Origin: a virus | Reading direction: 5' to 3' (one strand) | Length of the DNA stretch: 64,000 bases | Virus record (IMG/VR): IMGVR_UViG_3300046690_000339 | Location: 1 to 64,000 of that record | Shown here: positions 30,574 to 36,429 of the stretch, in pieces | Numbering within the stretch: position 1 is the first letter of the stretch | How the letters are laid out: each line of letters begins with the position of its first letter | Notes under the pieces: generated by a model | What the model was told of the DNA's origin: nothing | What the model saw: the letters and a program-made list of their open reading frames with translations, nothing else | The model's database searches: none | Translations under genes and position numbers: made by a program

Positions 30574-31776
30574 CTATTGCTCAAATTGCATCGCTGCGCC
30601 GTCCTCAAACTCGATCACGTTGCCGTCTTGGAATAGCATCTCGAAGGCGCCGAAATCGGCGGCGCCCGACGGATTGATGATCGCGTGCCCAGGATAGCCG
30701 CGCCCGACTTCGGCGCTGATTTGGTAAATGTTGATATGTAAGTTGGTGCCCTTTAGCCCACCGAAATCGGTTGTCTGATCCGCATCGTTATACGTGAAGG
30801 CTTCGGTCGTCGAGGTCAGCGTGCGAAGCACTGCGCTTTCATCATCCTCCAAGATATCCAGTTCGTAACTTTCCGCCGTCTCGGCAAGAGGCGGATCGTA
30901 AAAGTCCCGACCGTTGCGTCCTTGTAAACGGCTGCGCCGCTTGAAAGTAATCTGGACGTCATCCCCGATATCGGCCAAGCCACGAATGTCCACTGGAGCC
31001 CATGGCTTCAACGATATGCCGGTGTCGGTAAACGTGGTCGCTTGCGCACCGGTTATGTCCATGCCAGACGATACGGCTTTGAATTGCCGCGGCTGGCTAA
31101 TCACGGCCAGCGCATCGTTGATGCGGAAGGTAATCGCCTGGCGTAAAAGAATCGCCCGCTCATTCAGCAAGTGCGTTGCCATCGCCCACTCGGTTCCCTT
31201 ATAGCCGCGCACCATGGGACCGTCCAAGCTCCAGCGCGTCGCCGATAGCTGGCTGACATTCTGAGACAGCACGATTTCATCGCCGATCAAGTAAGCCACT
31301 TCGCCTTTCAGCATCTCTTCCAATGACATGCTTTCCAGCGTGCCGCCGATCAATTCGATCTCAAGCGTGTTGGCATAATCCAGCGTATTGATTTCGCCGG
31401 CCGGCAGCACTTCCTTGGCGAAACCGATCGGCGACGCTTGATCAACCGTTTTCACCTGCTGAAAATCCGCGGTATCATCGTCACTTTGCCAGAGGCTCGC
31501 CGCGCCCCAGGTCGCCAACGCGCCGCGCATGGCGACATAAAAGCCCGCGCCATCATCGGCATCGCGCAGCGTCGGGATATCCATTAAGCGCAGGATCGTC
31601 GAGCCCGGAACATTGACCGTCTGGTTCGGGAAGTTCGCCCGGACCGCTGTGACCGGATCGCCGAGCGCCTGACTGAAATAAATGGCGGGATCTTCCCGGT
31701 AGATTTTTACCGTGATCAATCCCTCGGCGGCCAGCGTCGCCTCGGCAATTCTTGCGGTGATATCTCGGGTTGCCAT
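30574..31776 (-). CDS. GTA-like central tail/host-specificity protein, C-terminal half
   Basis: LMDIPTLRDADD..GFYVA, IGDEI, RGYKGTE, RRSR and PLAE..ESYELDI motifs. Confidence 0.8.
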   Translation of the reverse strand: MATRDITARIAEATLAAEGLITVKIYREDPAIYFSQALGDPVTAVRANFPNQTVNVPGSTILRLMDIPTLRDADDGAGFYVAMRGALATWGAASLWQSDDDTADFQQVKTVDQASPIGFAKEVLPAGEINTLDYANTLEIELIGGTLESMSLEEMLKGEVAYLIGDEIVLSQNVSQLSATRWSLDGPMVRGYKGTEWAMATHLLNERAILLRQAITFRINDALAVISQPRQFKAVSSGMDITGAQATTFTDTGISLKPWAPVDIRGLADIGDDVQITFKRRSRLQGRNGRDFYDPPLAETAESYELDILEDDESAVLRTLTSTTEAFTYNDADQTTDFGGLKGTNLHINIYQISAEVGRGYPGHAIINPSGAADFGAFEMLFQDGNVIEFEDGAAMQFEQ

Positions 31777-31783
31777 TTAAGCC
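31774..31783. repeat. 10-bp direct repeat copy 1 (GGCTTAAATG on the minus strand)
   Basis: catttaagcc, identical to 34123-34132. Confidence 0.75.
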
Positions 31784-34125
31784 ATTGCCCCTAACAGCGG
31801 CGCATCGTCATAACAACGCCGATTTCCCAGCTCACAATACTTCCGCTCCAAGTCCATCCCGATGCCGCGCCGGTTCATCTTGTCAGCGACTAGCGCCGTC
31901 GTCCCTGAACCGCTGAACGGGTCAAGAATGATCGCGCCGGGCTTCGATACCAGCTTGATGAGATACTCGATCAGGTCTTGAGGCTTGACGGTCGGATGAT
32001 TGTTGCCCTCGCCACGGTCGGCCTTGTCGGCCTTGGCGGTATAGTGAAATCTATTTGCTGAGTCCGCTTCCCCACGAACCGTATTGAATAGCGTGATGTT
32101 GAATGTGGCAGGCTCTACAGACCCATTTGATTTCCAGCGGCTTATTGTAATCGTCGTGATGTCGGTCCGCCTTTGGGTTGCCGCAATTTTCACAAGGCAA
32201 CCGTTCGGGAAAGGCTTTTCTTGCTGCAGCTCGGGCGAGACATTTTTTTCTAAACTCAGAATTGCTGTGATAAGCGACTCGCAAAGTTTTCTTAACTCTC
32301 TCGGCGTTGCGCTCATAAAATGGTGCGTTGAATCGCTTAATCCAAGTCGTCCTTGGCTGGCCAAAATTGCTGCATGACTTAGAGCAGAAGCGACGTGATC
32401 GCTTGACAGGAAAGAAAGGTCGTCGGCAGTATTCGCAAGGTCTTGATTCCATGCTATTATTATAGCCTTGGCGTTGCAAAAAAGCGACTCAATTTCATTC
32501 AAAGAAACAGTTTTAAAAAACCGTGACGCGCCGCCGGTGTCGCCATACCAGTCAATCGGGTCTGCCCCTCTACTCTCTGCACCATAAACATTGCCTTGAT
32601 GACCAGACGTTGTTTTGGCGCGACTAACTGTTTTACCGCTGGTCAATTCCCCGCTCTGCTCATCGAGCAGCGCCGCCGCTTCTTCGTCGAGGATTAGGTT
32701 GGCGGGCCAACGACCGACGTTGCTGTGATGATTCGCTTTTGTCGGATCGTAGTTATCGCCAAGGCCGGTTTGAGACGGTCGCCCATTCGCGCCGCATTTA
32801 TAATCGCCATCGAGGTTGATTCGACACCCGTCGATATTCAGCGCCCCGGTACCGTATCGCTGCACGTTTTCGGCTACAGTGCCGATGATCGGCTTGCGGG
32901 CGACGATGATCGGCTGGAACTTAGGCCGTAATCCCAGCCCTATTTCTTCCGGGTGTAAGCGCTGCGCCTCGTCGATAGCATCGCCTAGAACAGAAAGCTC
33001 TTGGATGGCGTTGATGCTCGTGACGACGGCGTTCAAATATCTTGCCGCAGGCAAGGCATTTAACTGTAACCCAGGCGCTTGCAACTCTGCCTTTATGATG
33101 ATGCTTGGAGTGAGCGCCGATAAGCATAACTTCAAGATTTTTAGGTCGATTGTCGGATTTGTTTTCGATTCCCTCTCGCTTGTGGTGGACGTGCTCATTT
33201 CGTCGAAGTGGGCGACCAAGGCGCTGCGCCATGACGACACGATGCTCAAGCTCGTATTTATCGCCGACACGCACAGCGACGTATCCGTCTTTGCGCGTAA
33301 ATCGTCCCAAATATTCTTTGGCTGCTCGACATCCCATCGAGCAAAAGCGAGCGCCGCGTCGTGCTCTGCTTGGCTTAACTTGAAATGTTGTTCCGCAATT
33401 CTCGCAGGTAATATCGACCATAGTTGCGCCTCCAATTTCAATAGGTTCGCAACTATTATACTCCGTTCCGTTGATTCTGGAAATGGTTTTTGTGCTACTA
33501 TGATATTTTCCCATGCGGGTTTAAGCGCCGTGCCCCAGCCTTGCCACTCTTTTGCGGCGTCGGTAGATGGTGCAGTGAGTTTTTCTATTCCATAACCAAA
33601 GATAGCAGTATTGTTTCGATTAGCTTCAGCTGCGGCCATCGTGACGCCGTTTCGTTTTGCCGCCTGAACATCTCCCCTAACTTTTTCTCCAACAATCTCC
33701 CGCTCCGCTCCTGCCGCCTTATCAATCGCCTTACTCACGTCCAACGATTTCGGAAATCCGCTGCCGTAGAGCCACATGATGCAATCACGAATCTCAAAGC
33801 CTGCGTCCTCGATTGCGCAGGTCAGCCGGTGAAACGTCCGCGTGCCGCCGAAGGCGAGCAGGTAAGCGCCGGGCTTGAGCACGCGGAGGGCTTCGAGCCA
33901 GTATTCAACTCCCGGCACAACGGCGTCCCATTTTTGGCCCATGAATCCGCCGCCAGTTGTTACACGCGAGCGACCTGCAGGAGATTTCAGATTCAACGAA
34001 GCCGCGCCGCTTCCGCCTTTTTTGTTTTGAGTAAGTCCGTAAGGCGGATCGGTGATGATGGCGTCCACCGAATTATCCTTCAGCGGTACTTGTCTTGCGT
34101 CGGCGTTGAGAATTTTCCAGCTCAT
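31777..34125 (-). CDS. N6/N4 DNA methyltransferase (beta class) with two in-frame insertions
   Basis: TDPPY, WLYGSGFPKS, GRWPAN, HPTVKP and LDPFSGSGTT. 782 aa; 427 aa without the inserts. Confidence 0.93.
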   Translation of the reverse strand: MSWKILNADARQVPLKDNSVDAIITDPPYGLTQNKKGGSGAASLNLKSPAGRSRVTTGGGFMGQKWDAVVPGVEYWLEALRVLKPGAYLLAFGGTRTFHRLTCAIEDAGFEIRDCIMWLYGSGFPKSLDVSKAIDKAAGAEREIVGEKVRGDVQAAKRNGVTMAAAEANRNNTAIFGYGIEKLTAPSTDAAKEWQGWGTALKPAWENIIVAQKPFPESTERSIIVANLLKLEAQLWSILPARIAEQHFKLSQAEHDAALAFARWDVEQPKNIWDDLRAKTDTSLCVSAINTSLSIVSSWRSALVAHFDEMSTSTTSERESKTNPTIDLKILKLCLSALTPSIIIKAELQAPGLQLNALPAARYLNAVVTSINAIQELSVLGDAIDEAQRLHPEEIGLGLRPKFQPIIVARKPIIGTVAENVQRYGTGALNIDGCRINLDGDYKCGANGRPSQTGLGDNYDPTKANHHSNVGRWPANLILDEEAAALLDEQSGELTSGKTVSRAKTTSGHQGNVYGAESRGADPIDWYGDTGGASRFFKTVSLNEIESLFCNAKAIIIAWNQDLANTADDLSFLSSDHVASALSHAAILASQGRLGLSDSTHHFMSATPRELRKLCESLITAILSLEKNVSPELQQEKPFPNGCLVKIAATQRRTDITTITISRWKSNGSVEPATFNITLFNTVRGEADSANRFHYTAKADKADRGEGNNHPTVKPQDLIEYLIKLVSKPGAIILDPFSGSGTTALVADKMNRRGIGMDLERKYCELGNRRCYDDAPLLGAMA
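32051..32452 (-). CDS. hidden HNH endonuclease 2 (-1 frame inside the methylase)
   Basis: CEYC...FCSKSC, PCENCG...HHDDYNKPLEIKWVCRACH...H; TATAAT 6 nt before the ATG. Confidence 0.85.
   Translation of the reverse strand: MESRPCEYCRRPFFPVKRSRRFCSKSCSNFGQPRTTWIKRFNAPFYERNAERVKKTLRVAYHSNSEFRKKCLARAAARKAFPERLPCENCGNPKADRHHDDYNKPLEIKWVCRACHIQHHAIQYGSWGSGLSK
32921..33421 (-). CDS. hidden HNH endonuclease 1 (-1 frame inside the methylase)
   Basis: CENCG...FCSMGC, DGY, EHRVVM...LGRPL...VHH...DNRPKNL...H..HH; GGAGG SD and TATAAT upstream. Confidence 0.88.
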   Translation of the reverse strand: MVDITCENCGTTFQVKPSRARRGARFCSMGCRAAKEYLGRFTRKDGYVAVRVGDKYELEHRVVMAQRLGRPLRRNEHVHHKREGIENKSDNRPKNLEVMLIGAHSKHHHKGRVASAWVTVKCLACGKIFERRRHEHQRHPRAFCSRRCYRRGAALTPGRNRAGITA

Positions 34126-34132
34126 TTAAGCC
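34123..34132. repeat. 10-bp direct repeat copy 2
   Basis: catttaagcc, identical to 31774-31783. Confidence 0.75.
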
Positions 34133-36429
34133 GCTACCCTCAAGTTCACCGGATCAGCCGCATCCAGCGCCACATATTTTCTAGGCAGCATCAGCACGCG
34201 CGGATCGCGTTCGAGCCAGTGCGTCGCGCTTAAAACCTCGGCAATCTGTTTCGCCTTGGTCGATGTCATCACAATAGCAAGATCTACCGTAACCACGTTT
34301 TTCGATTCGCTGTTTAATCGACCTGACGAAACAACGTGACCGGTTTGATAGCTCGCATCCTGATCTTTAAACCGTACGTGGACAATGACAGGGAGTTCGC
34401 TTTCCTGCGAGCGCGTGATTTCCTGCACCGGCGGAAGAGCGGCGTTCAAGTCGAGCCGCGCCGCACAATCCCCCTGCAGTATCGTCGCCACGGCATTATG
34501 TCCGCGCTTGCGGAAGTAAAGCATGTTGTCGCTTTCCGGCCCGTCATAGTAGGCATAGCGCTGGAGCGGTAGCGTGGCGTCGCGGCCTGTCATCTGCTGA
34601 TCGAGGGTGAAGCCGCGCACGCAATCGGTAAGCTCGGTGACGTTGAATTCGTTTTCTTCCATACCGCAAGCGATGCAGATATCACGCTGGATTTTCCACA
34701 GCGGACAGCACAGACCCTCGGCACCCGGTGCCCAGGCATGAACGGTGAAGTCATAAAATCCCCAAGTGCCAAAATTCCCGGTGTACCAAATTCCATTTCG
34801 GACAAAGAGCGTACCGTCGAGGCCCGAGTTGACATGAGGAGTCGCCGATTGACCAAGAAAAGTTATTTCGCCATCGTTCCAATCCCAAAAGAGCGCCGAG
34901 CCGAAAGTCTGTCCGGTATTGCCAAAAAGTCTTATTCGGGTATCGCTCTCGACGAAAAAATTTCGGACTTTATTCGTGCCAAGATCGTAACTTTGCACAA
35001 GCGACATATCTTCGGGGTCGAACTTATAAAGCATCGCGTGCGCGAGAATATTTCCGAATGCGTCAAAATTGACTCCGCGCAAGGCCCACAAAAAGTCATC
35101 GCCCATATTGATGCTGCTAAGACCGCCATGATCCGTCCAAAAGCTGTCGGCGATCTTACCGATCAATGCACCGCCATCCGCGTTGAATCGCTCGATCAGT
35201 GAAAATTTTCCTCCTGTCGGGACCCGACGCATCAAATAAAGATCGGTTCCCTTCTTCGCAAAGAAATCATAAGGCGGCTGCGGCGGCCCGATTGTTGTGA
35301 TAATTTTTCCTGCACGCACGAGCCAAGCTTTGCCGTCACTCGCGAAGAGCGCAGCCGGTTCGTCGCTGACTCCAGTCGCCATCACGCCGCCCAATTCGCT
35401 TGGGCTCGAATTGTCTGTAAAGACTGCCGGCGGTCGTTCTTCTTCGATGTATGATCCATCCGATAGCAGGCGAAACGCGCGAATGAAATACTCGCCTGCA
35501 TTGGGGCCGCTCGGAATGATGTCGGTATAGACTTGGCTCCCATGACCGACCATCATCAGAATTTCGCCGTTAGGATCGACATAGGACCAACTGCCGAAGC
35601 TACCGCTTGCGCCGCCCTCATCGGTCATCTGCCAGTAGCCTTTTTCCTGATAATTTTCATCGCCGTCCGTGTAGCACTCAAAAGAAAGATTCGGGATAGT
35701 CCCGTACTCCGTCGTCTCGAAATCTTGAAAGACGGCCAAGAATTGATTTCTATACGCCGTGGTATTACCGACGCCCTCGAAGGCTTCGATTAGCGCGGGC
35801 GGCAGCTGTTCTTCGTTGCCATCATAAAAAGTAACCGAGCCGGCGTTTCTGCCTTCGAGATTCTGCCCGGTGCCAATTAGGCTTTGCAGACTGGCATCCA
35901 TGCTGTGATCATAAATTAATTTTGGCCCGGCCCAGATTCGGATCACGCCACGGCAGTTCGACGCGCCATTTATCGCCACGGCAAAGTCGGCAAAGTACGT
36001 AAACGTTTCACCCGACGACCCACCTTTGCCCTTACCGCCGACGGTGTGCTTAAATGTGCGAATGCCACGACCGCCATGGCCGTCCGAGCCGATCCAGATC
36101 AAATTTCCTGCCATGCGATCGACGCCCCAGAATCGTTTGATCGGCGAGCCGAATGCGGCCGATTGAATGTGTGCGTCTTTCAGGCGCGGTCCGGTTACGC
36201 TTTGGTTTGCGCCTTGGAATATTGAAAACAGAGTTGAACTTATTGACCACGCCAGTTGCGCACTGGTGAGAATCGAGCTTACCGACCACGTTGCGGCGGC
36301 GGCAGTAGCGCCGGCCGCAACCTCGGCAGCAACCGCGCTCGCCGCCGCCACTCCGGTCGTCGCAGCTGCGCCGCCAGCGCCAATCTCGGCGGCGGAGCCG
36401 ACTGCCGCCATTATTGTAACAAAACTCAT
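34126..36429 (-). CDS. GTA-like central tail/host-specificity protein, N-terminal part
   Basis: GPRL...FG.PI...G..RMAGNLIW, RIWA, AYR, IPNLSFE, QESELP...YQ and LDAADPV. Confidence 0.85.
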   Translation of the reverse strand: MSFVTIMAAVGSAAEIGAGGAAATTGVAAASAVAAEVAAGATAAAATWSVSSILTSAQLAWSISSTLFSIFQGANQSVTGPRLKDAHIQSAAFGSPIKRFWGVDRMAGNLIWIGSDGHGGRGIRTFKHTVGGKGKGGSSGETFTYFADFAVAINGASNCRGVIRIWAGPKLIYDHSMDASLQSLIGTGQNLEGRNAGSVTFYDGNEEQLPPALIEAFEGVGNTTAYRNQFLAVFQDFETTEYGTIPNLSFECYTDGDENYQEKGYWQMTDEGGASGSFGSWSYVDPNGEILMMVGHGSQVYTDIIPSGPNAGEYFIRAFRLLSDGSYIEEERPPAVFTDNSSPSELGGVMATGVSDEPAALFASDGKAWLVRAGKIITTIGPPQPPYDFFAKKGTDLYLMRRVPTGGKFSLIERFNADGGALIGKIADSFWTDHGGLSSINMGDDFLWALRGVNFDAFGNILAHAMLYKFDPEDMSLVQSYDLGTNKVRNFFVESDTRIRLFGNTGQTFGSALFWDWNDGEITFLGQSATPHVNSGLDGTLFVRNGIWYTGNFGTWGFYDFTVHAWAPGAEGLCCPLWKIQRDICIACGMEENEFNVTELTDCVRGFTLDQQMTGRDATLPLQRYAYYDGPESDNMLYFRKRGHNAVATILQGDCAARLDLNAALPPVQEITRSQESELPVIVHVRFKDQDASYQTGHVVSSGRLNSESKNVVTVDLAIVMTSTKAKQIAEVLSATHWLERDPRVLMLPRKYVALDAADPVNLRVAA

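What the first reader, a model, noticed from the sequence alone, without database searches (positions are those of the whole stretch)
32044..32514. A second, unrelated hidden-HNH insertion in the same methylase
Seen: a 471-bp (157-aa) in-frame block between GGASRFF and YTAKA. Its -1 frame encodes a different HNH type (HHDDYNKPLEIKWVCRACH). Removing both inserts leaves a 427-aa methylase. Inference: two HNH lineages independently reached the same design (same frame, stop codon inside the rebuilt motif). That points to a general class of elements rather than a one-off.
Basis: partly seen in the sequence, partly recalled or inferred. Interest (0 to 1): 0.85.

Follow-up and report, generated by a model that had tools for sequence, protein, structure and literature searches.

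The report
Second hidden nuclease gene inside methylase
A phage DNA-methylase gene carries a selfish DNA-cutting (HNH) gene in a shifted reading frame while the methylase frame stays stop-free across it; this splicing-free way of living inside a gene was first published in 2025, so this is a well-supported new lineage and site of a known kind.

Summary
Window 32044-32514 (minus strand) is a 471-bp, stop-free block in a 782-aa N6_N4 DNA methylase, between GGASRFF and YTAKA. Its -1 frame encodes a 133-aa HNH-type nuclease.

Nine other loci have the same nested layout at the same site, from viromes, metagenomes, a Paraburkholderia genome and two MAGs. Both frames are open in all ten. None of 125 free-standing relatives of this nuclease has a stop-free frame at that offset.

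The nuclease frame is under purifying selection (pN/pS 0.40). The methylase frame through the insert evolves like non-coding sequence (1.15), apart from avoiding stops. Empty-site alleles are common. Occupied and empty methylases are mixed on the host-gene tree, with at least 5 gains or losses. Alleles with zero, one or two inserts all exist.

The design itself is not new. It matches the "ShiLan domain / hidden HNH" of Arsenault, Gosselin and Gogarten (2025, PMC11855218). Insert 1 of this same gene is a ShiLan homologue. Insert 2 is a third, unrelated nuclease lineage at a new site, outside actinophages.

This scan had already found the same kind in at least 8 other genomes. Expression, methylase activity and homing remain inferred.

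The parts
31777..34125 (-). Host gene: beta-class N6/N4 DNA methylase, 782 aa, read straight through two insertions. Motif IV (DPPY) is at aa 26-29; HPTVKP and motif I (DPFSGSGTT) lie downstream of insert 2.
   Evidence: closest solved relative is CcrM 6pbd (tested with empty homologue L083)
32044..32514 (-). Insert 2 (the finding): 471 bp = methylase residues 538-694, stop-free in the host frame. The exact borders can slide by a few codons because the RF motif is repeated at both ends.
   Evidence: low GC; host-frame model pLDDT <50
32051..32452 (-). Hidden HNH-type (beta-beta-alpha-Me) nuclease gene HNH2 in the -1 frame: 133 aa from the conserved ATG at 32452, with stop TAG at 32051-32053. 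An upstream TTG at 32479 is an alternative start.
   Evidence: AF2 pLDDT 84.7; pN/pS 0.40
32459..32487 (-). Promoter-like element inside host codons: -35-like TCGCTT (32487-32482), a 17-nt spacer, and -10 TATAAT (32464-32459). The ATG follows 6 nt downstream, which is leaderless geometry. AAGG at 32468-32471 is a possible weak SD.
   Evidence: the same geometry, TTG(A/C)TT-17-TAT(A/C)(A/T)T-6-ATG, in L003, L099 and L188. The simple promoter scan did not flag it. Function is inferred.
32515..32535 (-). Native upstream half of the target motif, GGASRFF (residues 531-537).
32044..32055 (-). Element-borne degenerate copy of the motif, N-R-F-H, directly before native YTAKA. It contains the HNH stop codon. 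The R plus a hydrophobic residue are kept in all 10 of 10 copies, although most of it lies outside the HNH ORF.
32914..33507 (-). Insert 1 (context): 198-aa in-frame block at a different site (ALKPAWE|PIIVARKP). It hides the HNH_3-type gene 32921..33514 and is a homologue of the published ShiLan hidden HNH.
   Evidence: 48.5% identity to the phage ShiLan gp65 region and 55% to Cylindrospermopsis phage Cr-LKS3 methylase

Best explanation
Insert 2 is a mobile homing-endonuclease element of the 'hidden HNH' kind.

A gene for a small free-standing-type HNH (His-Me finger) nuclease has inserted into the DNA that encodes the conserved RFF|Y.AK motif of a phage DNA methylase. There is no intron or intein. 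Instead, the element is kept free of stop codons in the host reading frame. Ribosomes therefore read straight through it and make a methylase with a roughly 150-aa unstructured loop. The methylase is still joined to its essential C-terminal AdoMet-binding part.

The element carries a degenerate copy of the interrupted motif (x-R-F-x before Y) at its 3' end. This copy probably helps the methylase fold and also destroys the nuclease's own target site.

The nuclease is made separately from the -1 frame. It starts either from an internal promoter that would give a leaderless mRNA (window, L003, L099, L188) or from an internal Shine-Dalgarno site (other copies). The nuclease would cut empty methylase alleles during co-infection or in prophages, and repair would then copy the element in.

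Shown: the anatomy, the dual open frames, selection on the nuclease frame, selection against stops in the host frame, and the patchy distribution. Inferred: expression, methylase activity, cleavage specificity and homing.
For: (1) Same site and same layout in 10 loci with DNA: the window, L003, L099-L102, L188, L191 (Paraburkholderia phenazinium), L192 (Ramlibacter MAG) and L193 (Gemmatimonas MAG). Six more proteins, P0002-P0007, carry the insert.

(2) The searches used the nuclease as query, so they were blind to the host frame; L188 came from a methylase-query scan. Every close relative found this way (46% identity or more) was nested in a methylase with an open host frame. None of 125 free-standing family members has an open frame at that offset.

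(3) Median pN/pS is 0.40 in the HNH frame, 1.15 in the methylase frame and 1.25 in the third frame. The most variable codon position is position 3 of the HNH frame.

(4) The AF2 model of HNH2 is confident (pLDDT 84.7) with a beta-beta-alpha element. The host-frame reading of the insert has pLDDT <50, while the methylase core reaches 70-87.

(5) The distance from RFF to HPTxKP is bimodal: 14-93 aa in 80 methylases and 158 aa or more in 18.

(6) On the host-gene tree the insert needs 10 changes, at least 5 forced by supported branches. One example is the 100* clade of L188 (occupied), L189 (empty) and P0006 (occupied).

(7) There is no Rfam hit in 31000-35000. There are no intein termini: the first insert residue is K/A/F/Y, the last is H/K/I/R/F/A/M, and the +1 residue is Tyr.

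(8) Start signals are conserved.

(9) The layout matches the published ShiLan and Pacc40 elements.
Against: No expression, protein or cleavage data exist for any copy. Pfam does not recognise HNH2. Its structural matches to solved HNH nucleases are weak: Foldseek E 0.097 and VIA Z 3.7 or less. The nuclease assignment therefore rests on the motif, PHROG 2340 and annotated phage homologues.

The methylase model is poor across the whole variable middle region, so 'surface loop' is not shown. Patchiness on a tree with long branches could owe more to repeated loss than to gain.

For the window copy alone, an open host frame is only mildly unlikely (2.5-5%). The -35 element of the window copy is weak and the promoter scan missed it.
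Confidence: 0.75

Rival explanations
1. The insert is removed by an unrecognised splicing process, either a new kind of intron or an intein-like protein element, and the open host frame serves that process.
For: The open frame is what an intein needs. The flanks carry repeated motif copies, which were once discussed as intron-like for ShiLan. New ribozyme classes would escape Rfam.
Against: The host-frame peptide evolves like a non-coding frame (pN/pS 1.15 against 1.25), which does not fit an autocatalytic protein domain. There is no Cys/Ser/Thr at position 1, no His-Asn at the end, and Tyr at +1. The host-frame model has pLDDT <50. An intron has no need for a stop-free frame, yet all 10 copies have one. 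Only about 70 nt of the 471 lie outside the HNH ORF, which leaves little room for a ribozyme.
Confidence: 0.07
2. The host frame is kept open not for methylase function but to keep ribosomes on the mRNA. That would avoid Rho-dependent polarity and permit translational coupling to the downstream gene. The methylase itself may be crippled.
For: In the window the methylase stop overlaps the start region of the next gene (GGCTTAAATG), so coupling is plausible. The methylase is dispensable in related actinophages according to PMC11855218.
Against: All occupied alleles keep the catalytic and AdoMet motifs on both sides of the insert: DPPY, HPTVKP and DPFxGSG. The element-borne R-F before Y is conserved in the host frame outside the HNH ORF. 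Genomic contexts differ among loci.
Confidence: 0.08
3. The nuclease is a functional partner of the methylase rather than a selfish homing enzyme. The pair would be a nested restriction-modification or host-DNA-degrading module.
For: Some phage homologues are annotated as PacI-like restriction endonucleases. Nesting guarantees that the two genes are inherited together.
Against: Most methylases of the family lack the nuclease. Unrelated nucleases occupy other conserved motifs of the same gene. Insertion exactly in a conserved motif, together with a recoded motif copy, is a hallmark of homing. The family's other members are free-standing in unrelated contexts.
Confidence: 0.06
4. Chance or artefact: the methylase is a pseudogene and the open frame is accidental, or comes from bias in gene calling.
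For: For a single copy, openness has a 2.5-5% chance (23% with the HNH's own codon usage). Protein databases list only called long ORFs.
Against: The comparison is 10 of 10 against 0 of 125, and most of the nested copies came from searches that were blind to the host frame. The copies have diverged to 46-67% identity without acquiring a stop in the host frame.
Confidence: 0.02

Closest known systems
ShiLan domain / hidden out-of-frame HNH in mycobacteriophage DNA methylase (Gosselin et al. 2023, PMC9957025; Arsenault, Gosselin and Gogarten 2025, PMC11855218)
   Same: Same host gene family (N6_N4 methylase; ShiLan-type phages are hits of this methylase). Both are in-frame, stop-free insertions at a conserved motif. 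Both have the HNH in the third (-1) frame, with its stop codon in the last few nucleotides of the insert. Both carry a repeated copy of the flanking motif, have no intron or intein signature, give a low-confidence host-frame model, and are patchily distributed. Insert 1 of this same gene is a true homologue.
   Different: Insert 2 has an unrelated nuclease: HHDDYNKP-type, 133 aa, with no HNH_3 match. It sits at a different site (RFF|Y rather than KPAWE|PI). Its carriers are the window phage, whose tail protein resembles those of alphaproteobacterial phages, and Betaproteobacteria and Gemmatimonadota genomes, not actinophages. It has ATG starts with promoter-like or SD signals rather than a GTG start with no RBS.
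Pacc40 gp60 hidden HNH (same 2025 paper)
   Same: It is a second lineage with the same design in a methylase, and it has free-standing relatives.
   Different: Its nuclease is AP2/HNH_3-like (L179 3866..4345) and is not alignable with HNH2. The host is a divergent helicase-methylase fusion, and the site differs.
Free-standing phage homing endonucleases that split host genes (knowledge from memory: T4 mobA/gene 60-39; Aeromonas phage Aeh1 mobE in nrdA)
   Same: The nuclease gene has no intron or intein and sits inside a conserved host gene.
   Different: Those elements cut the host gene into two polypeptides. Here the host frame runs through as one polypeptide that overlaps the nuclease gene.
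Inteins with out-of-frame or antisense homing endonucleases (bioRxiv 10.1101/2025.01.02.630785; 10.64898/2026.09.14.751524)
   Same: The endonuclease is encoded in another frame or strand within an in-frame insertion.
   Different: Those insertions have Hint splicing domains. This one has none.

Membership tests
Hidden out-of-frame HNH insertion element (ShiLan-type, PMC11855218) | Insertion interrupts a conserved motif of a host gene, relative to uninterrupted homologues | tested here: met
   GGASRFF|...|YTAKA in the window against GGASRFFYTAKAS in L083 and L091. The spacing is bimodal.
Hidden out-of-frame HNH insertion element (ShiLan-type, PMC11855218) | No stop codon in the host frame across the insert | tested here: met
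   0 stops in all 10 nested copies; 0 of 125 free-standing relatives are open.
Hidden out-of-frame HNH insertion element (ShiLan-type, PMC11855218) | A complete nuclease ORF in an alternative frame that fills most of the insert | tested here: met
   402 of 471 nt; the ORF is open in all 10 copies; pN/pS 0.40.
Hidden out-of-frame HNH insertion element (ShiLan-type, PMC11855218) | No self-splicing intron or intein features | tested here: met
   No Rfam match; no intein terminal residues; the host-frame peptide evolves neutrally.
Hidden out-of-frame HNH insertion element (ShiLan-type, PMC11855218) | Disjunct distribution among related host genes | tested here: met
   10 changes on the extein tree, at least 5 forced by supported branches.
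Hidden out-of-frame HNH insertion element (ShiLan-type, PMC11855218) | Sequence homology of the nuclease to the ShiLan or Pacc40 nuclease | tested here: not met
   HNH2 against HNH1 (the ShiLan homologue) gives E 0.055. The Pacc40 ORF is of another type. Insert 2 shares the design, not the lineage.
Hidden out-of-frame HNH insertion element (ShiLan-type, PMC11855218) | Nuclease expressed, and homing into empty alleles | not testable with these tools
No experiment exists for any member.
HNH / His-Me finger nucleases | beta-beta-alpha-metal core with a catalytic His and Cys-pair zinc sites | tested here: inconclusive
   The motif is CxxC...HHDDYNKP...CxxCH. The model has strands at 95-99 and 108-112 and a helix at 113-124. 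PHROG 2340 matches at 8.6e-10, and phage homologues are annotated as endonucleases. However, there is no Pfam HNH hit and only weak structural matches.
Intein | Cys/Ser at position 1, His-Asn at the C-terminus, Cys/Ser/Thr at +1, and a conserved Hint domain in the host frame | tested here: not met
   K...H|Y in the window, with other non-nucleophiles in the relatives. pLDDT is <50 and pN/pS is 1.15.
Group I/II intron carrying a homing endonuclease ORF | A recognisable ribozyme core flanking the ORF | tested here: inconclusive
   No Rfam match at E<=1. Only about 70 nt lie outside the ORF. An unknown ribozyme cannot be excluded by computation.

The most novel reading that the evidence does not exclude
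Hidden nuclease genes may be a broad splicing-free strategy rather than a methylase curiosity.

Under this reading, any homing nuclease lineage can settle in a conserved motif on two conditions: its DNA is purged of stops in the host frame, and it brings a recoded copy of the broken motif. That copy would both repair the host protein and immunise the target site.

The RFF|Y site would then be a hot spot that has taken up several unrelated cargos. The nuclease could lie in the -1 frame, the +1 frame or the antisense strand. Short RFF-x(8-50)-RFx-Y stretches in other methylases would be scars left by lost elements.
Probability: 0.35. Interest if true: 0.65.

Novelty: new member of a known kind. 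Interest (0 to 1): 0.45.

Why it matters
Homing endonucleases are thought to need an intron or intein to live inside essential or conserved genes. The 2025 ShiLan paper proposed a third way, which is to be read through. It rested on a few actinophage examples and had no test for selection.

This locus adds three things. It adds an unrelated nuclease lineage at a new site, found in proteobacterial and other genomes. It adds a second hidden nuclease in the same gene. It also gives quantitative evidence that selection removes stop codons from the host frame while leaving the encoded loop otherwise free to drift.

This makes the idea testable in tractable hosts such as Paraburkholderia. It also warns annotators that long 'methylase' ORFs can hide whole genes.

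Tried and rejected
- Intron: Rfam at E<=1 over 31000-35000 found nothing.
- Intein: the terminal residues and the evolutionary rates do not fit.
- Frameshift fusion of the methylase N-terminus to the HNH at the TTTTTTAAAA run: rejected, because the HNH frame has stops between the 5' junction and its start (the open frame is only 145 aa).
- Homology of HNH2 to the Pacc40 hidden HNH: none.
- Sequence search of the HNH2 family profile against PDB: only a spurious S27ae zinc-ribbon hit.
- Foldseek and VIA-align against PDB: HNH nucleases rank among the top rows, but all are weak.
- Pfam on 21 family members: no HNH family was recovered.
- AF2 of the whole 782-aa protein: too poor in the variable middle to place the insertion on the surface.
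DNA for P0002-P0007 and for the other site-C inserts (P0125, P0140, P0148, P0105) could therefore not be read.
- The search for related loci with P0148 found nothing.
- The comparison of fourfold-site identity, nested (0.46) against free (0.33), is confounded by divergence and was not used.
Full report
WHAT IS THERE

The window is part of a 79.9-kb IMG/VR virus record. Its tail proteins resemble those of Caulobacter, Rhodobacter and Sphingobium phages. On the minus strand, 31777..34125 is one 782-aa ORF with Pfam N6_N4_Mtase (6.8e-31). Motif IV (DPPY) lies near the N-terminus. HPTVKP and motif I (DPFSGSGTT) lie near the C-terminus.

Two further same-strand ORFs lie wholly inside it, both at frame offset 2 (the -1 frame):
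- 32921..33514, HNH_3-like with zinc ribbons (insert 1).
- 32051..32479 (insert 2, the finding).

The block 32044..32514 is 471 bp. It has no stop in the methylase frame, 13 stops in the +1 frame and 4-9 in the three reverse frames; the HNH frame has 3, all outside its ORF. Its GC is 0.46-0.49, against 0.56-0.60 in the flanks.

THE HIDDEN GENE

The -1 frame encodes a basic 133-aa protein starting at the ATG at 32452. That start is conserved in relatives. The protein has two Cys pairs and the motif HHDDYNKPLEIKWVCRACH.

Evidence on its identity:
- It hits phrog_2340 'endonuclease' at 8.6e-10.
- It matches phage proteins annotated as endonuclease, endonuclease VII or PacI-like.
- Pfam does not recognise it.
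- An AlphaFold model built with 21 homologues is confident (pLDDT 84.7) and ends in a strand-strand-helix unit.
- Solved HNH nucleases top the structure searches, but only weakly.

I therefore call it an HNH-type (His-Me finger) nuclease with moderate confidence. It shows no significant similarity to the nuclease of insert 1 or to the Pacc40 hidden nuclease.

IS THE OPEN HOST FRAME MORE THAN CHANCE?

For this copy alone the case is mild. Keeping the nuclease protein fixed and resampling synonymous codons leaves the host frame open in 2.5% of trials (uniform usage) to 5.4% (methylase codon usage). The comparative evidence is decisive.

Searches with the nuclease as query cannot see the host frame. 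Such searches in viral, metagenome and genome collections found every close relative (46-67% identity) nested in a methylase at the same RFF|Y site: L003, L099, L100, L101, L102, L191 (Paraburkholderia phenazinium LMG 2247) and L192 (Ramlibacter MAG). A shorter, diverged copy is in L193 (Gemmatimonas MAG). L188 has the same layout and came from a scan with the methylase P0125 as query. Both frames are open in all 10.

Among 125 distinct free-standing members of the same nuclease family, none has a stop-free frame at that offset over the comparable 130 codons. The median is 5 stops, or 4.3 per 100 codons.

A protein search with the host-frame peptide found six more methylases that carry the insert, P0002-P0007.

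WHICH FRAME IS THE GENE?

Across the seven best-aligned nested copies, the median pN/pS values are:
- nuclease frame: 0.40
- methylase frame: 1.15
- third frame: 1.25

The third codon position of the nuclease frame is the most variable.

So the nuclease is a protein under purifying selection. The methylase-frame peptide drifts like non-coding sequence, except that it never acquires a stop. Its conserved patches, such as TITISRWKS, are simply the shifted reading of HHDDYNKPLEIRW.

That rules out an intein-like or otherwise functional domain in the host frame. It agrees with the low-confidence model of that stretch (pLDDT <50, against 70-87 for the methylase core).

JUNCTIONS

In all copies the insert follows (S/A)RFF. 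It ends with a degenerate copy of that motif, x-R-(F/L/I/V)-x, directly before the native Y.AK. Examples are SANRFH|Y in the window, SASRFK|Y in L003 and GSRFM|Y in L191.

The nuclease stop codon (TAG or TAA) lies 3-12 nt before the junction, inside this copy. Most of the copy lies outside the nuclease ORF. Its conservation must therefore be a host-frame or target-site constraint. In L102, L191, L192 and L193 the 5' end of the insert also mimics the downstream flank (FQAK, YC, FVSK).

Insert 1 behaves the same way. Its stop TAA sits in the P-K of the rebuilt LRPKFQPIIVARKP, downstream of the native LKPAWENIIVAQKP. The published ShiLan element shows the same repeated-flank feature.

I infer that the recoded copy does two jobs: it helps the methylase fold, and it destroys the nuclease's recognition site.

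EXPRESSION SIGNALS (INFERRED)

The window, L003, L099 and L188 share this arrangement within host codons: TTG(A/C)TT (TCGCTT in the window), 17 nt, TAT(A/C)(A/T)T, 6 nt, then ATG. A transcript from it would start at or next to the ATG, giving a leaderless mRNA.

L100, L101, L102, L191-L193 and a second ATG in L003 instead have AGGA/GGAG-type ribosome-binding sites. The simple promoter scan did not flag the window copy, because its -35 is weak.

MOBILITY

Among 98 methylases that could be scored, the distance from RFF to HPTxKP is 14-93 aa in 80 and 158 aa or more in 18. Thirteen of the 18 carry insert 2.

I built a tree of 75 methylases with the insert and linker removed. The insert-2 label needs 10 changes, at least 5 of them forced by well-supported branches. 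L188 (occupied), L189 (empty) and P0006 (occupied) form a 100* clade. The window sits in a 96* clade with five empty alleles.

All occupancy states occur:
- none
- site A only (L095/L096)
- site B only (P0022, P0041)
- site C only (many)
- A+C (L003)
- B+C (the window)

This is the pattern expected for homing plus loss. The direction of the events and actual homing are not shown.

COMPARISON WITH WHAT IS KNOWN

The design was described as the 'ShiLan domain' in 2023 (PMC9957025). In 2025 it was recognised as a hidden out-of-frame HNH, and a second lineage in phage Pacc40 was added (PMC11855218).

Shared features are the methylase host, the stop-free host frame, the nuclease in the third frame, the stop codon in the last nucleotides of the insert, the repeated flank, the absence of an intron or intein, a poorly predicted host-frame loop, and a disjunct distribution.

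Insert 1 of this window is a true ShiLan homologue: 48.5% identity to the ShiLan gp65 region and 55% to a cyanophage methylase.

Insert 2 is new in four respects:
- Lineage: an HHDDYNKP-type nuclease, for which no nested copy was found in 50,697 GenBank phage records.
- Site: RFF|Y.
- Host range: the window phage's tail protein resembles those of alphaproteobacterial phages, and other copies lie in Betaproteobacteria and Gemmatimonadota genomes.
- Start signals.

Out-of-frame and antisense nucleases are also reported inside inteins. This scan has already logged the same kind in at least 8 other genomes. Hence my verdict is a new member of a known kind.

WHAT REMAINS OPEN

These points are untested: whether the 782-aa protein is made and active, whether HNH2 is expressed and cuts the empty site, and whether the element homes.

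Noticed in passing
L185:713-2896 (+), with L185:1563-2234 (-): A 727-aa methylase has a low-GC in-frame insertion that hides a bona fide HNH_3 gene (Pfam 1.2e-13) on the opposite strand. The host frame has 0 stops across it, against 10 and 16 in the other plus frames. The chance of this under synonymous resampling is 0.0003-0.007. It is an antisense version of the hidden-nuclease design with no intein.
   Followed up: partly
P0125, P0140, P0148, P0105 (proteins; no DNA available): Four other methylase representatives carry inserts of about 150-170 aa exactly at RFF|Y. Their sequences are unrelated to insert 2 and are rich in S/T/A/P/G, as expected for shifted-frame read-through. They may hide further cargo lineages at the same hot spot.
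   Followed up: partly
P0079, P0015, P0082, P0132, P0151, P0094; L185 (SRFFQTFPPEVPRFVFQSK): These have short stretches of the form RFF-x(4-50)-(R)Fx-Y.AK at the same site. They may be scars of lost elements that kept both motif copies, or they may be natural linkers.
   Followed up: no
L003:2986-3513 (+) and L095:2893-3459 (+): Another hidden HNH_3 gene lies at a third site, after GFPK(S/G), this time in the +1 frame of the methylase. L095/L096 carry it alone, with site C empty. L003 carries it together with insert 2.
   Followed up: partly
L094:1896-4262 (+): A related methylase carries a classical intein (CVPLG...VTGN|T) directly before GFPKS. The same gene family therefore hosts both inteins and hidden nucleases at neighbouring motifs.
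   Followed up: no
window 31777-31786 and 34125-34134: The methylase gene is bounded on both sides by the same 10 bp, GGCTTAAATG (a stop TAA followed by an ATG). It may itself be an inserted cassette.
   Followed up: partly
P0012, P0016, P0021, P0047, P0068, P0069 (proteins): Many methylases of this family repeat the middle module (EPIVxARKP ... GRWPAN ... SRFF) two to four times in tandem, with SRFF-K as the joint between modules.
   Followed up: no
L004:3998-4585 (+) and L004:4525-5874 (+): The closest free-standing relative of HNH2 (42% identity, with an extra C-terminal tail) sits directly upstream of, and overlapping, a ParB_N-DUF4417 gene.
   Followed up: partly
L102:1044-1493 (+); L193:1167-1517: The L102 copy has CRSHH in place of CRxCH and S in place of the conserved W, so it may be decaying. 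The L193 copy is a shortened version of about 105 aa (HHPNYADLL...) in a 117-aa insert. In both, the host frame is still open.
   Followed up: no
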